DNA of 64,000 nucleotides from Candidatus Nanohaloarchaea archaeon. Lineage in GTDB: Archaea > Nanohalarchaeota > Nanosalinia > Nanosalinales > Nanosalinaceae. A program made the position numbers. Shown piece after piece: positions 3,001-12,000 of the stretch (positions are counted from its first letter, which is position 1; each line of letters begins with the position of its first letter). The DNA is taken from the NCBI GenBank assembly GCA_041640075.1, contig JBEQAY010000002.1:1-64000 (forward strand), given 5' to 3'.

Positions 3001-6000
3001 TCTCTTACTTCCTCTTCAATCTCCCGGACAGCTTTCTCCGCCGGGGAAAGCGGTGCATGTCCGACACCGAAGCTTGTATCGTTTGAAAGCCTTTCATCTC
3101 TTTCATAGACTGCCTCCAAATCAGTTGATGTCTCACCAATCCTTGACTCAAACTCTATATGTGAAGTCTCCAACTGCTTGAAATTTGAGTCAATGTAATT
3201 CTTAGCAGCATCCAATGCTATCCTATCGACAGGTATTTTCTCGCCATTAAATTCCTTTGTTGCACGGCCTGTTAGCAGAATGTAGATAGGTTCAATGATT
3301 TCTCCTTCTTCAGAATCAATATCCGGATTTGCCTCACCCGCCACAAGTTGGACCTCATCTGTATTATGGTGCAAAATGGTGCCGAACCTGTCACGATACT
3401 CACGTGAGAGAGCCTGTGAAACACTCTCGGCAATACCATCAGAAATACTATCAGGATGGCCCAATCCTTTCCTCTCAACAAGCTCTGTTTTCCTCTGCTT
3501 AACGGGGTCTTTATCTACTTCATGATGTGTAATATCCATATTGAATATATTCATCAAGGAAACCTAAAAACTCTCACATCAATCTTGCAAGAACCCTGAA
3601 TTCTGTAAATAATGGACTCTCTGGGATTTGAACCCAGGGCCTTCTCCGTGCCAGGGAGACGTTCTGCCAGGCTGAACTAAGAGCCCTTGTATATTGATTT
3701 CTGCTTGGTTAATCCTAAATAACCTTTCTGGAATTACTGTTCTGGGAGTATTTATTTGATGTTTAGTCTATAAGGAGGTTTTTATGGCTGTTAAGCTAGA
3801 GGATGATTACCGCGACAATTTTTCTGACTACAGTCCTGAAAACCTGAAGGAACGCATGACGTCTCTGGCGGAGGATGACTCGGATTTCTCGGACGAGGAG
3901 ATCGAAGGTCTTCTCTCCGAGTTCGCTTACGCACTGGAGAGAGGTGATATCCGTTCCGCGGAGAAAGTCGACGAAGAATGGCAGGCAAATGCATGGGTTA
4001 AGAAAGGAATACTAACGATTTTCGGTCATGCAGAAAATATTGAGCGAAATGAAGGCCGCAGCTACTATGATGTTATGCCTACAAGAAATGTAGATGAGTT
4101 CCCGGAGAAAGGAGCACGTAATACGCCAGGGACGACGTTGAGGATGGGTAACTTCTTCGGCGACGGTGCAACAGTCATGTCTGAGGCCTACGTCAACATC
4201 GGAGTCTATGTAGGAGACGGCTCGATGGTGGACTCGAACGTGACGATGGGTTCATGTGCACAGGTCGGAGAAGACTGCCACATCGGAGCAAACACCTTGA
4301 TTGGAGGTGTACTGGAGCCTATTGAGGATAATCCTGTGATAATCGAAGACGGAGCGTCTATAGGCGGCGGCTCGATCGTAACCTCCGGCTTCAAAGTAGG
4401 AGAAAACGTCGAAGTCGCAGAAAATACGCTGTTGACACCGAGGATCGATGTCTACGACCTTGTAGAGAACGAAGTCATCAGAGGAGAGATACCTGCGAAC
4501 AGGAGGGTATTCCAGCGCTATGTGACCTCAGGCCTCGCAGAACACGAACTCTTCCAGGAAGAAGGAAAAACACCTCAAAAGCCTGTGATCGTGGCCATCG
4601 ACAAGGAAGAGGACGCAGTAGAGCTGGAAGAAGAGCTGAGGATGGATTAGAGGTCAAAAAAGGCCTCCATCCTTTCTATTCTTTCTCTAACTCTGTACCG
4701 TGGAAGATATCTCTCAGGCCTTCACGTTCACGTATGACTTTAGCTTCTCCATCCTCTACCAGAACTTCCGCGGGTAGAGGCCTCGAGTTCCAATGAGAGG
4801 CCATCGTAAAGCCGTAGGCACCGATATCTTCTATAGAGACAAGATCTCCTTCCTCCATGTCCGGAAGTGCCCGGTCCTCAGCCATAACATCGGTCGAGGA
4901 GCAGACAGGTCCTACAACGTTTTTCTCGCCGTCTACAGGCCTTTCAAGGTCGTTCGCAAGGAGGATCTCGTGGTAGGCGTCGAGCAGCATAGGCCTAATG
5001 TTATGGTGCATCCCAGTGTCAATACCTACGAACTCGGTTCCTCCCTTCTCCTTCACACCCGTTACGCTGGACAGAAGGTGTCCTGACTGTGCTACGAGGA
5101 ACCTCCCCGGCTCAATCCTTAACTGAGGCCTCCCGATATCGTGCTCTTCTATACCTTCGGTGAACTTCTGTGTAACGTTTTCAGCAGTTTCTTCGACATC
5201 TAGTTCGTCCTGTTCAGGCCTGTAAGGGATTCCCAGTCCCCCGCCTATGTCCACAAATTCGAACTCTATATCCAGTTCTTCCGCGATATCACCCGCTATC
5301 TCAAGTAGCTTTTCCGTTATCTGTCCGAAGTACTCCGGGTCTCGCACATTGCTTCCAGTCATCATGTGGATGCCGAACCTCTCAGCACCTCTTTCCTTAG
5401 CCTTCCTGTAGGCCTCGACGGCTCTATCCTCTGGTATACCGAACTTGGTGTCGCCGCCTCCTAGTACGAGTCCGAAGTCGCCTCTTCCTATGCCTGGGTC
5501 GATCCTGAAACATATCTCCTCCGGCATCTCGTCGATCTTGTCGAGAAGGAAGACAGAATCCAGGTTCACAGTCGCTCCGTGCTCGATAGCGTACTCGATC
5601 TCATCCTTCCTGTTATACGGCGCAGTATACATCATCTCATCCGCATCTACCTCGTTCGCCAGCAGTATCTCCGACTTCCCAGCACAGTCTAGACCCGCAC
5701 CCTCTTTAACTAGTAGCCGGGCGATGCTAGGGTTGAAGTTCGACTTCACTGCGAAATTAATGCTGAAATCCTCGTAGCGACTGGAGAAGGCCTCGTCAAG
5801 CCTCCTGTACTGCTCTCTTATCTTCTCGGCGTCGTACACGAACAGCGGCGTATCATATTCCTCTGCGATCTCCTCTGCTTCAAGGCCTCCGATCTCCAGC
5901 TTCTCAGTCATAGTGATCTCCCGATAAAGAAAAAAGAGGGTTGAAAGGTTTTCATTCTTCCTCACCCACCATCGGGAACAGCAGCACATCCCTGATCGAC

Positions 6001-9000: not shown

Positions 9001-12000
9001 TTGAGGACTACGATATCGAGGTCACGGAGACCCATCACAACAGGAAGAGAGATGCCCCTAGTGGGACGGCCAACAGCTTTCTGGAAGAGATAAGGGAAGC
9101 AAGAGGAGATTTTGAAGAAGTCCATGGCAGAGAAGGTGAAGCGCCGAGAACTGAAGGTGAGATCGGTGTCCACGCAAAGAGAGCAGGCGACATCAAAGGA
9201 ACACACGAGGTCTTGATGGCGGGAGACGAGGAAGTACTGAAGATTCGGCACAGAAGTGAGTCTAGGGAAGTTTTCTCTTCTGGAGCCTTGAAGGCCGCTG
9301 AATGGCTTCAGAATCAGAAACCTGGTTTCTACAGTTTTTCAGAGGTGCTAGAAAGATGAGGATAGTTGTGAAGTTCGGAGGAACCAGTCTGAAAGACGGG
9401 AATAGGATAGAAAACGCAGTCGATTCCATAGAGAACGCAGTAGAGGAAGGACACGAGGTGGCTGTTGTGGCTTCGGCAATGGGAAGCACGACAGATGAAC
9501 TGCTCGAAAATATTGATTTCAACGCGGAGGAAGAGGATCGGGATGAGATTGTCTCTATGGGAGAGAGAACCAGTGTGAGAATGCTAAAAGCAGCCCTCAG
9601 ATCCAGAGGTATTGATGCAGAGTTCTATGAACCAGGAGCAGAGGACTGGCCTGTAAAGCTAGGTGAAGAAGGAGAGGTAAATATATCTGAGACGCGTGAA
9701 AGATCCGAGAAAATTGCTGAGAGGCTTGAAGATGAGGTTCCGGTGATCACAGGTTTCCTAGCGGAAGATTCGGAAGGAAAAGTTACAACTCTGGGCCGTG
9801 GAGGATCTGATACGACTGCAGTGATGCTTGGAAACTACATGGAAGCGGACAGAACCGTTATTGTCACAGATGTGGAGGGAGTTCTGACCGGTGACCCAGA
9901 GATCGTGGAATCAACGCATAACGTGGGTGAGATCAGCGTCGATGAACTCAGGGATCTCTCCTTCAAGGGTGCAGAGGTCATCGCACCGGAGGCACTACCG
10001 TACAAAGAGGATGAAATGGATGTTACAGTCGTGCATTTCCAGCAAAATAACTTGCTGGAGTCTGGGACAAGTATCGAAGGAGAGTTCGAGCGTATAATCA
10101 ATACTGATGAAAAAGAGTTCGCCTGTCTTACAATAGCCGGGAGAGAAATCAGACTGGAGCCAGGTATACTTGCAAAGCTTTCTACACAGCTCGAGGAAAA
10201 CGGAGTGAATATTGAGGCAGCTTCGACAGGAATGGACAGTGTCAGCTTCTTCGTTGAAGAGGAACAGGCTGATACTGCAAACCAGGCGCTTCATGACCTT
10301 GTGGTGGAGAGGGAGAAAATCTCCTCGGTCACGGTAGATGATGAGATCGGGGTCGTACGGGTTGCAGGTGGAAAACTTCCTGATCGGCCTGGCGTGGTGC
10401 GTGATATAGTTGATCCTCTGGCCGAGGCGAATATAAATATACATGAGATTGTGACAAGTGCCTCCAGCGTTATAGTTTTCGTGAGCTACGAGGTAAGGGA
10501 AAAAGCATTGAGTATAGTGCAGGAGAACCTGGGTGACGCATAGAATGTCAAGGATAAAGCTCGGGATTCTCGGTGCGACCGGTATGGGTGGAAGAGACGC
10601 AGTGCTGCACCAGGCAGATCTGGATGAAAGCGGTGAAAACTATGCAGATCTGGAGATCGTTACGGGTAGTCCCAGCAGCGCCGGGAGAAAGCTTGGCGAA
10701 GTTTTCCGGGAGAAAGAGGAGAATCTTTCAAGCCGGTACGGTTTCTGGCAGCCACAGGAATGCCCGGAAAAATACAGAGACATGACTGTGGAGGAACTGG
10801 ATGCGGATAGGATCGCTGAAAAAGCCGACTACGTTATCTCAGCGCTTCCAAGTGCCGTGGCCAGAGAGATAGAGCCCGAACTTAGGGATCGTGGCGTAAA
10901 CGTTTTCTCTAACGCTAGTGAGTTCCGATGGAGGGGAGAAGTTCCTCTGATGATACCTGAGGTTAACCCTGAGGATATAGAGATGCTCGAGGATCAAGAG
11001 ACTCCGGGGAAACAGGCGAACAACCCGAACTGTACGACCGCAGGTTATGTGCCTGTTATAGAGGCACTGAGACAGGAGTTCGAGATTAGAGAGGTTGATC
11101 TGGTGACGATGCAGTCGATCTCTGGTAAGGGAGACAAAGTTGCATCTGAAGATTACTCTTCGAGAATCACCGGGAACGCGATAGATGACTGGGACAGAGA
11201 AAGCAACCACAATGGCGAGGAGATCAAGTCGGAGATCGAACCACAGAAAATCCTGGGCTTTGCTGAAACCCGGGAAGAGGCACTGGAAAAACCGGGAATC
11301 GATATCAATGCACAGACCACACGGATCCCTTCACAGTACGGCCACCTGGAATCAGTCAGGATAGAGTTCGATGAGAGAATTTCAGAGGAAAAAGTACGGG
11401 AAGTCCTGGATTCGTGGAGACCTGATTCAAAAGTGATAGAGCTGCCTTCAAGCCCTGAAAATCCGATAGAGGTACTTGAAAACCAGCCTGAACCACGAGA
11501 AAATGTCTTCACCGGGGAAGGAATGACTGTGACTGTAGGAGACATCAGGAAGATAGATGAGAAACGGATCAGTCTATACTCGCTGAGTCACAACTTGAGA
11601 CGTGGCGCCACCTGGACAGCCCGGCAATCCATGGAGCTCTACCTGAAAGAGAAAGAAATACTGTAAAAGTTTTCAGCTCCTTTGATTCAGCACCATGTAA
11701 GTCTCGGTACCTTCAACCCCTGAAATACTTCTTACACTGTCCAGTAAACTGTTTATCTCTCGATTATTTCTTCTTTCAATCCTCAGAACAAGATCGTATC
11801 CTCCTGCTACTTCAAGGATTTCTATACCCTTTGGGAACTCTTTCAGAACTTCTTCAATATCTTTCCCGGTCTCAAGTTCCACCATGACAACCGCTCTAGA
11901 TCCTTCTGTAGATGTCTCTACAGTGAATTTTTCTATCACGCCTGATTCCTGCATTTTTTCGATCCTGTTTCTTACTGTTCCCTCGGAGAAATCGACTTTC

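What a model noticed while it worked through the whole genome (the two positions that open the first line are those of the whole stretch)
3784..11666. Accessory lysine island: DAP-pathway genes travelling with a second, class II lysyl-tRNA synthetase
An 8-kb block holds dapD-like, lysA, a class II LysRS, dapA, dapB, lysC and asd, although the genome also encodes the usual archaeal class I LysRS; none of the seven genes has a counterpart in the closed genome of a relative from another genus. I read the block as a horizontally acquired 'lysine self-sufficiency' module in which the biosynthetic genes and a dedicated, foreign-type LysRS were gained together, which makes this Nanosalina one of the few DPANN symbionts able to make an amino acid it is supposed to take from its host, and one of the few organisms with both LysRS classes. 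It would qualify the picture of nanohaloarchaea as amino-acid auxotrophs and gives a natural case to ask why a [...]
Evidence so far: Genes g00077-g00083: THDPS_N_2/Hexapep (39-42% to bacterial DapD), LysA (43% to Methanothermobacter), class II LysRS 482 aa (48% to Methanoculleus, 47% to Clostridium/Moorella), DapA (41% Archaeoglobus), DapB (48% Haloarcula), LysC (30-32% bacterial), Asd (36% Archaeoglobus). Class I LysRS is split over two contig ends (g00858 C24:17027-17671 + g00137 C3:3-1073; 78% and 60% identical to G053). tblastn of all proteins against the whole G053 genome: no hit for g00077, 78, 80-83, and g00079 hits only at 27%. Tables: THDPS_N_2 in 5 of 69 genomes of the order, Orn_DAP_Arg_deC in 7 of 69; lysA next to a class II-type synthetase family in 3 of 69. 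DapE-like g00122 and a DapX-like aminotransferase g [...]
(Added by a program. Inside this text positions count along the whole contig: contig position 1 is position 1 of the stretch shown here. "Call 12" and the like, gene names such as g00115 and contig names such as C1 are that model's own, and its searches are not shown. The text may have been shortened before it was handed on; [...] marks where a part breaks off. The agent that wrote the report below was given it as the finding of a first reader that could run no searches.)

Follow-up and report, generated by a model that had tools for sequence, protein, structure and literature searches.

The report
Nanohaloarchaeal lysine cassette lacking an epimerase
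A tiny salt-loving symbiotic archaeon, from a group thought unable to make amino acids, carries an old family-wide lysine gene cassette plus a second lysine-charging enzyme, and its last pathway enzyme has an altered active site that may let it skip a step textbooks treat as required.

Summary
All seven genes are real and intact; the genome also has class I LysRS (split by an assembly break). It is not a private, recently gained island: lysS is in 21 of 70 genomes of the order (15 with both classes, 14 without lysA or lysC), its nearest named relatives are other DPANN, and lysS-dapA-lrp occupies one conserved slot across many genera. The block is a mosaic (haloarchaeal-like lysC/dapD/dapB) shuffled among nanohaloarchaea, with a LysM-like regulator and a palindrome at the dapA promoter. 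DapF, Ddh and DapC/DapL were not found, even in a closed relative. New here: LysA belongs to a subfamily that lacks the PLP-stacking histidine and goes without DapF (Micrarchaeota with DapL: 0 of 8 have DapF, against 6 of 6 with classic LysA; operons 0 of 16 against 12 of 12), which suggests LL-DAP decarboxylation. The window's form has also lost the Tyr and Glu that grip the substrate's far end, always as a pair (52 of 52). Most likely epimerase-free lysine synthesis; not shown biochemically, and the transaminase step and succinyl-CoA supply are open.

The parts
3613..3686 (-). tRNA-Ala(GGC) at the left edge; its 3' end points away from the block, so not the usual integration geometry
3784..4650 (+). 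dapD, tetrahydrodipicolinate N-acyltransferase, haloarchaeal-like (50% to Halorientalis)
   Evidence: 9 of 70 genomes
4676..5911 (-). lysA-family decarboxylase of the 'CEN' subfamily, L/S variant: M184 for the PLP-stacking His, L310 for Tyr, S338 for Glu; K56, E267, R270, R306, C337, Y366 kept
5952..7400 (-). lysS, full-length class II lysyl-tRNA synthetase (OB-fold plus catalytic domain), DPANN-type
7610..7633 (+). 13-bp imperfect palindrome followed by a TATA-like box in the divergent lysS/dapA gap; candidate Lrp/LysM site
   Evidence: 8 of 20 dapA upstream regions against shuffle mean 0.38 (max 4); only site in G000 at 1 mismatch or fewer; consensus was drawn from these same regions, so partly circular
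7656..8597 (+). dapA-like synthase of a nanohaloarchaeal clade; GCTGH for GTTGE and SPYQ for TPYY; Schiff-base Lys and the Tyr/Arg of YNVPGRTG kept
   Evidence: 21 of 70 genomes
8598..9359 (+). dapB, dihydrodipicolinate reductase (44% to Halorientalis)
9356..10543 (+). lysC, aspartate kinase with two ACT domains, haloarchaeal-like
   Evidence: 7 of 70 genomes
10545..11666 (+). asd, aspartate-semialdehyde dehydrogenase, divergent (34-37% to five archaea)
11673..12074 (-). Lrp/AsnC regulator, best model LysM (106.5 bits, cut-off 180); follows dapA or asd in most relatives
12798..13427 (-). metallophosphoesterase gene, the conserved right-hand marker of the slot
42911..44023 (+). M20 DapE/ArgE-like deacylase, the only M20 found in G000; candidate deacylase, but its spread does not follow the block
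   Evidence: 236 bits, cut-off 284

Best explanation
An old, family-level lysine cassette at a fixed chromosomal slot, built from host-like haloarchaeal genes (lysC, dapD, dapB), a nanohaloarchaeal dapA, an archaeal 'CEN'-type lysA and a DPANN-type class II LysRS, kept, eroded or swapped gene by gene among nanohaloarchaea. Working model: under lysine shortage the LysM-like Lrp acts at the divergent promoter and turns on dapA-dapB-lysC-asd and lysS-lysA (inferred). Aspartate goes to tetrahydrodipicolinate by LysC, Asd, DapA, DapB (genes shown, activity inferred); DapD acylates it (inferred); a general aminotransferase adds the amine (gene not identified, as in haloarchaea); LysA then removes CO2 from an L,L intermediate, so no epimerase is needed (inferred from co-occurrence and active-site changes). 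Because the window's form has lost the Glu that binds the far amine but keeps both Arg that bind the far carboxylate, its substrate may be the still-acylated L,L-DAP, with the M20 enzyme freeing lysine last (speculative). LysS is an ordinary second LysRS co-regulated with the pathway. Odds: evolutionary part about 0.8, epimerase-free lysine synthesis in this genome about 0.4.
For: Spread and slot. Same gene order in G040 (closed, 98%) and G041 of another genus. lysS one clade in the family, outgroups DPANN. Shuffling: LysS rejects G000+G056 as a clade (p-AU 0.0001) although the marker aCPSF1 is 87% to G056 and 79-80% to G040/G041; G040 and G041 carry different lysA forms (84% and 57% to the window). 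No DapF in any of the 10 lysA genomes, no Ddh, Asp/Glu racemase, alanine-racemase-type DapF2 or class III/IV aminotransferase in G000 or G040. Subfamily: operons with CEN-type LysA have dapF in 0 of 16, classic-type 12 of 12. Prediction noted, then tested genome-wide in Micrarchaeota: 26 of 201 have LysA; DapF in 1 of 15 CEN-type and 7 of 11 classic-type; with a DapL-like neighbour 0 of 8 and 6 of 6; no Ddh in 5 of 5 checked; G287 and G165 operons hold dapA-dapB-lysC-asd-lysA-dapL with no extra gene. His179 is M/F in 92 of 95 CEN and 14 of 14 nano rows, His in 69 of 69 classic rows. Tyr and Glu change together: 76 of 76 Glu rows have Tyr, 52 of 52 non-Glu rows lack it; 80 of 80 outside genomes keep Tyr (65). 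Literature: Glu315 binds the far amine and E315T switches substrate (PMC8277567); FigC lost this acid for an N-acylated substrate (PMC7857480); diatom LysA makes L-lysine from L,L-DAP slowly (10.1101/2020.10.01.322594); haloarchaea run the route with no known DapC (PMC10433800).
Against: No enzyme assay. G000 is 89% complete. No DapC/DapL: the one class I aminotransferase sits in a tyrA-pheA operon and is also in genomes without the block. No succinyl-CoA synthetase motif, one 2-oxoacid dehydrogenase only (131, crude motif scan). The M20 is below cut-off, present in many block-less genomes and not found in G038. DapA has two triad changes and survives alone in about half of its 21 genomes, so it may have another job. 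Bacteria with CEN-type LysA do have DapF elsewhere in 3 of 7 genomes, 1 more weakly, and G260 has CEN LysA with DapF; CEN LysA also sits beside wall-peptide salvage genes (L327), so it probably accepts meso-DAP too. Kin are not independent, so the counts overstate. Most Tm E315X mutants keep some DAP activity (PMC8277567). L/S with dapD: 5 of 7 loci, two without (79-89% complete drafts weaken all absences). G056 and G060 differ from G000 over the flanks as well (MAT 57-58%, 123), so the direction of exchange is unknown.
Confidence: 0.5

Rival explanations
1. Eroding or salvage cassette: the pathway cannot run end to end. LysA decarboxylates meso-DAP taken from the haloarchaeal host or from bacterial wall peptides; upstream genes are relics or use host intermediates; the L/S change is relaxed selection.
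For: Many partial versions (dapA-lrp only; lysA without lysC in 4 of 10; frameshifted genes in G041, G050, G056, G034). Missing DapC, DapF, doubtful succinyl-CoA. dapF beside an Ala-Glu epimerase-like gene in G030 and an LD-carboxypeptidase beside lysS in G061. LysA-only salvage is described in gut bacteria (PMC9026213).
Against: All eight genes are intact in G000 (94); the paired Tyr/Glu switch recurs on the tree and is fixed in 52 rows, which drift would not pair; several frameshifts may be read errors (G040 also has a split housekeeping aminotransferase).
Confidence: 0.25
2. A hidden epimerase (or dehydrogenase) of an unrecognised family supplies meso-DAP and LysA is a normal DAPDC.
For: DapF2 shows such displacements exist (PMC13759103, PMC9026213); E. 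coli grows without dapF through other racemases (PMC13759103); an earlier AI note proposed a cupin (e1-4496403).
Against: Operons of G287 and G165 have no spare gene; four racemase/epimerase/dehydrogenase families were not found; does not explain why DapF absence tracks the LysA subfamily and its lost His, Tyr and Glu.
Confidence: 0.12
3. The L/S enzyme makes something other than protein lysine (an N-acyl-lysine or other amino acid derivative, for example an osmolyte).
For: Loss of the far-amine Glu redirects DAPDC to 2-aminopimelate (PMC8277567); a beta-lysine-acetyltransferase-like GNAT sits beside dapE and lysS in G039 and G052; DapA triad changes.
Against: That GNAT is not in G000 (140); lysA lies directly behind a LysRS gene on the same strand, with a LysM-like regulator.
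Confidence: 0.08
4. One reading: one horizontally gained island, pathway and foreign LysRS together, in this lineage.
For: Absent from closed G053, G054, G058, G051; tRNA at the edge; mildly high G+C; gene trees disagree with the marker.
Against: lysS mostly occurs without the pathway (14 of 21), is family-wide and DPANN-like; genes have different nearest relatives; same slot in many genera; proteins fully acidic (D+E 0.19-0.25); no integrase in the block.
Confidence: 0.05

Closest known systems
Haloarchaeal succinylase DAP cluster (dapA-dapB-dapD-lysA-dapF-dapE plus ask, asd) of Natrinema gari and Haloferax volcanii (PMC10433800)
   Same: Same enzyme set, dapC unidentified in both; lysC, dapD, dapB closest to haloarchaeal homologs among those compared (59, 50, 44%).
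   Different: No dapF; lysA from another subfamily (35% to Halorientalis); lysC and asd inside the cluster; lysS and a LysM-like regulator included.
meso-Diaminopimelate decarboxylase LysA (T. maritima 2YXX, M. jannaschii 1TWI, H. pylori 2QGH)
   Same: Fold (best Foldseek hits, TM 0.87-0.91), PLP lysine, EPGR, specificity-helix Arg, catalytic Cys.
   Different: His179, Tyr289 and Glu315 (T. maritima numbers) are Met, Leu and Ser; the CEN subfamily has no close solved structure (best E 2e-55).
Diatom PtLYSA; FigC, SbnH, BtrK
   Same: DAPDC-clade enzymes that act on L-centres or acylated substrates; FigC also lost the acid after the Cys.
   Different: 22-25% identity; PtLYSA's change is in EPGR, which is intact here; activity here is untested.
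Organisms with both LysRS classes (Methanosarcina barkeri, Bacillus cereus, Symbiobacterium thermophilum; PMC2916919)
   Same: Full-length class I and class II genes in one genome.
   Different: Here class II is the patchy one, lies in a lysine biosynthetic cluster, and is common across a family (15 of 70 genomes with both).
Sulfolobus LysM and lysWXJK regulon (PMC3597687)
   Same: Lrp-family gene beside lysine genes; semi-palindromic site just upstream of the TATA box.
   Different: Below the LysM cut-off; controls DAP genes; binding untested; I did not see the published consensus letters, so sequence identity of the sites was not compared.

Membership tests
Class II LysRS (LysS) | OB-fold anticodon domain plus class II core, above curated cut-off; not the EpmA paralog | tested here: met
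Class II LysRS (LysS) | Can serve as sole LysRS | tested here: inconclusive
   class I not found in 6 lysS genomes, two of them 92-93% complete; lysS takes the lysK slot in G001 and G002; drafts
Class II LysRS (LysS) | Charges tRNA-Lys with lysine | not testable with these tools
   needs assay
meso-DAP decarboxylase | Fold, PLP lysine, EPGR, Arg285, Cys314; TIGR01048 above cut-off | tested here: met
meso-DAP decarboxylase | Glu after the catalytic Cys that binds the far amine (Tm Glu315) | tested here: not met
   Ser338; role from PMC8277567
meso-DAP decarboxylase | PLP-stacking His (Tm His179) | tested here: not met
   Met184
meso-DAP decarboxylase | Strict preference for meso-DAP | not testable with these tools
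   needs assay
DapA (HTPA synthase) | Schiff-base Lys, Tyr and Arg of YNVPGRTG, GDD | tested here: met
   motif in 119 of 120 homologs
DapA (HTPA synthase) | Thr and second Tyr of the catalytic triad; score above TIGR00674 cut-off | tested here: not met
   GCTGH in 114 of 120, YQ in 110 of 120 (123); 200.4 against 206.15 (4); triad roles recalled, not from a call
Succinylase DAP pathway | LysC, Asd, DapA, DapB, DapD, LysA present | tested here: met
Succinylase DAP pathway | DapF (or DapF2, or Ddh as alternative) | tested here: not met
   G000 89% complete, G040 closed
Succinylase DAP pathway | DapC aminotransferase and DapE | tested here: inconclusive
   no dedicated aminotransferase; M20 below cut-off; DapC also unknown in haloarchaea
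Recent genomic island | Absent from kin at this slot, foreign composition, integrase | tested here: not met
Recent genomic island | Flanking direct repeats (att sites) | not tested
   no repeat search was run
LysM regulon | LysM ortholog and bound palindrome | tested here: inconclusive
   best model LysM but 106.5 against 180 (4); enriched palindrome

The most novel reading that the evidence does not exclude
A widespread, structurally uncharacterised LysA subfamily (C-E-N-x-D, PLP-stacking His replaced by Met/Phe) decarboxylates L,L-diaminopimelate, giving an epimerase-free route to lysine in wall-less archaea and some small-genome bacteria; nanohaloarchaea, held to be amino-acid auxotrophs, use it, and their L/S form goes further by acting on N-acyl-L,L-DAP, reordering the last steps. 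(My split: subfamily uses L,L-DAP about 0.5; window's enzyme completes lysine synthesis this way about 0.35; acylated substrate about 0.2.)
Probability: 0.35. Interest if true: 0.85.

Novelty: new variant of a known kind. Interest (0 to 1): 0.7.

Why it matters
Papers on cultivated nanohaloarchaea describe almost no amino-acid synthesis (PMC10266531, PMC10443357, 10.1101/794461); here 5 of 70 genomes hold lysA+dapA+lysC and many hold remnants, so dependence on host lysine varies within the family. Both LysRS classes in 15 of 70 genomes gives a natural series (class I only, both, class II only) to ask why two are kept. Above all, DAPDC is taught as strictly meso-specific and DapF or Ddh as obligatory; a LysA subfamily that predicts DapF absence would close 'dapF gaps' in many DPANN and CPR reconstructions, add a fifth DAP route, and offers a cheap enzyme test.

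Tried and rejected
Contamination or chimera: rejected (106, synteny 20). 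EpmA/GenX identity for lysS: rejected. Broken class I gene: rejected. Alternative steps searched and not found in G000 and G040: DapF (10, 16), Ddh, class III and IV aminotransferase (34, 58; G038 has class IV), Asp/Glu racemase, alanine-racemase-type (57; the one G040 hit is another decarboxylase-like protein whose only G000 match is LysA, 139, 140). The class I aminotransferase as DapL: rejected, it is in the aromatic operon. M20 as block-linked DapE: spread does not match. L/S versus Y/E form explained by presence of dapE: rejected, L305 has L/S with dapE (87, 95). Genome-wide DapF test in 26 mixed genomes was weak (CEN 4 of 7 over cut-off, others 15 of 19). G108 was dropped from the 'DapL neighbour' count because its neighbour is an aspartate aminotransferase; G165's DapL is below cut-off and G126's neighbour is only 27% to DapL, both kept. 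Sigma-70 promoter/terminator scan at chance level. No RNA holder listed, no evidence on expression. Viral scan found no nanohaloarchaeal form. The IQ-TREE run on LysA did not finish; FastTree was used, supports are low at several nodes. No species tree was built; one marker stands in. Literature searches without a report of this cassette, of both LysRS classes in nanohaloarchaea, or of an L,L-DAP decarboxylase subfamily: (0 papers); the library lacks most subscription papers, and supplements (La Cono 2020 Supplementary Text, Fig. S1 of PMC10266531) were not seen and may list these genes.

Full report
Observation. The window holds dapD (+), lysA and lysS (-), dapA-dapB-lysC-asd (+) and an Lrp gene (-), between tRNA-Ala and a metallophosphoesterase gene; all are intact and acidic like the rest of the proteome. 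LysS is a full class II enzyme above its cut-off, aligned end to end with solved LysRS. Class I LysRS is split only by the assembly (127-base exact overlap). Even contig depth over block and flanks argues against a chimera.

Distribution. Among 70 genomes of the order: lysS 21, class I 59, both 15, lysS only 6, dapA 21, lysA 10, dapD 9, lysC 7, dapF 2, neither with lysA. dapB and asd were not searched order-wide, only read in fetched loci. Fourteen of 21 lysS genomes lack both lysA and lysC. Gene maps of 56 fetched loci plus the window show one slot, next to the metallophosphoesterase gene and often 7-17 kb from class I lysK, filled with the whole block (G000, G040, G041, G056 with an insertion), parts of it, a LysW-type cluster (G032, G050), or nothing (G053). 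dapA-lrp is the most persistent pair and reaches family f5. Many genomes are drafts, so absences are soft.

Origins. Family lysS copies form one clade (support 0.99, FastTree); of 12 named neighbours in the search seeded with the G001 copy, 10 are Woese-, Pace- or Nanoarchaeota and 2 are CPR. LysC is 59% to Halorientalis against 33-38% to four other archaea; DapD 50%, DapB 44%; Asd is 34-37% to all. LysA forms a nanohaloarchaeal clade whose next named hits are Micrarchaeota, Marsarchaeota, Thermoprotei and Conexivisphaerales. DapA's best 120 hits are 45-93% identical and, where named, nanohaloarchaeal but for one labelled Halobacteriaceae; one is a Ca. Nanohalobium constans protein. Within the family the genes are shuffled: LysS rejects the two genus mates as a clade and single genes differ sharply between otherwise alike blocks. 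Donors are nearest-hit statements, not tested by rooted trees.

Gaps. DapF, Ddh, Asp/Glu racemase, alanine-racemase-type DapF2 and class III/IV aminotransferases were not found in G000 or in closed G040. The class I aminotransferase belongs to a tyrA-pheA cluster. DapC is also unidentified in haloarchaea, where the route works (PMC10433800, passages). The M20 at 42911 is a weak DapE candidate. A motif scan found no succinyl-CoA synthetase, so acetyl-CoA or host supply must be considered.

LysA is not a textbook DAPDC. The model (pLDDT 91.9) matches DAPDC folds best, but alignment to T. maritima shows Met, Leu and Ser at His179, Tyr289 and Glu315. Two layers. First, a large 'CEN' subfamily, split from classic CES/CET enzymes in a 185-row tree, has lost the His (92 of 95 against 0 of 69). 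Its operons lack dapF (0 of 16 against 12 of 12). I noted the idea and tested it on fresh genomes: of 201 Micrarchaeota, 26 have LysA; DapF is in 1 of 15 CEN-type and 7 of 11 classic-type, and in 0 of 8 against 6 of 6 where a DapL-like gene is adjacent. Two operons are complete but for dapF with no spare gene; two carry a LysM-like Lrp as here. DapL makes L,L-DAP, so the simplest reading is that this LysA accepts it. Against: walled bacteria with CEN LysA often keep DapF elsewhere, G260 is an exception, and kin are not independent. Second, within nanohaloarchaea Tyr and Glu are lost together: 52 of 128 rows lack Glu and all lack Tyr, 76 keep both (8 genome rows partly duplicate database rows); Y/E rows fall at four or more places in the clade (weak supports). 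Outside, 80 of 80 genome loci keep Tyr and of 91 scored metagenome/viral loci only the nanohaloarchaeal-type L305 is L/S. Glu315 binds the far amine and its loss shifts specificity (PMC8277567, passages); FigC replaced the same residue for an N-acylated substrate (PMC7857480, passages and section 8); diatom LysA converts L,L-DAP slowly (10.1101/2020.10.01.322594, passages). Hence the working model: decarboxylation of L,L-DAP or its N-acyl form, then deacylation. Shown: genes, residues, co-occurrence. Inferred: every activity.

Regulation. A palindrome plus TATA-like box precedes dapA in 8 of 20 regions (shuffle mean 0.38) and is unique in G000. With the LysM-like Lrp this resembles the Sulfolobus LysM arrangement (PMC3597687, passages). 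LysS faces the same gap, which would tie extra charging capacity to lysine shortage; why a second class is kept is not resolved here.

Known and new. Cultivated nanohaloarchaea are described as nearly devoid of amino-acid synthesis (PMC10266531, PMC10443357, 10.1101/794461, PMC9563170; passages only). Some Micrarchaeota make most amino acids (PMC12892359, passages), so a DPANN prototroph is not unique. Two LysRS classes are known from a few genera (PMC2916919, PMC9437257; passages). DapF2 is the one described DapF replacement (PMC13759103 outline and passages; PMC9026213 passages). My searches found no report of this cassette or of an epimerase-free LysA subfamily; supplements were not seen. 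Earlier AI notes record similar dapF-less cassettes but are leads only.

Verdict. Observation confirmed; island reading partly supported; new variant of a known pathway; interest 0.7, driven by a directly testable change in a textbook step.

Noticed in passing
L079/L080 (G032) and L092 (G050): A LysW-carrier cluster (lysW, lysX, argC-, argD-, argB-like, M20) sits in the same slot beside lysS and dapA; lysine or arginine role not resolved.
   Followed up: partly
L095 (G001), L096 (G002): Class II lysS stands beside the rhomboid (and in G002 the M50) gene, where class I lysK stands in family f1, and class I was not found: in-place replacement.
   Followed up: partly
L089 (G039): Two lysS copies (one very divergent, 45%) and two dapA-like genes, one with Arg at the Schiff-base Lys position.
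   Followed up: no
L078:6668-7756 (G052), L089 (G039), L450 (G225): A protein with no Pfam hit beside dapE-like genes resembles beta-lysine N-acetyltransferases by ESM features and structure; not in G000.
   Followed up: partly
L103 (G030), L084 (G033), L094 (G061): dapF beside an L-Ala-D/L-Glu epimerase-like gene, dapF beside lysS, and an LD-carboxypeptidase beside lysS: hints of wall-peptide salvage.
   Followed up: no
G023:C12, G037:C62, G026:C36: The aCPSF1 gene is interrupted near residue 240 within open frames of 1090-1225 aa, probably an intein.
   Followed up: no
L385-L396: Twelve viral-collection contigs, most labelled GVMAG, encode CEN-type LysA.
   Followed up: no
G000:C28:585-3989: tyrA, aminotransferase, pheA and a small chorismate-mutase-sized gene: an aromatic amino-acid cluster like that described for BNXNv in PMC10266531.
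   Followed up: partly
window 25729-27060: CobQ/CbiP-like amidotransferase in a genome expected to lack cofactor synthesis.
   Followed up: no
G000 whole genome: ARAGORN found one tRNA-Lys (CTT, C6) and none with TTT among 39 tRNAs; may be incompleteness.
   Followed up: no
L183:721-2142 (G040): A second alanine-racemase-fold decarboxylase-like gene (473 aa) next to an ATPase, absent from G000.
   Followed up: partly
window 53556-61141: Large low-complexity surface-protein-like ORFs (663 and 1865 aa), not examined.
   Followed up: no
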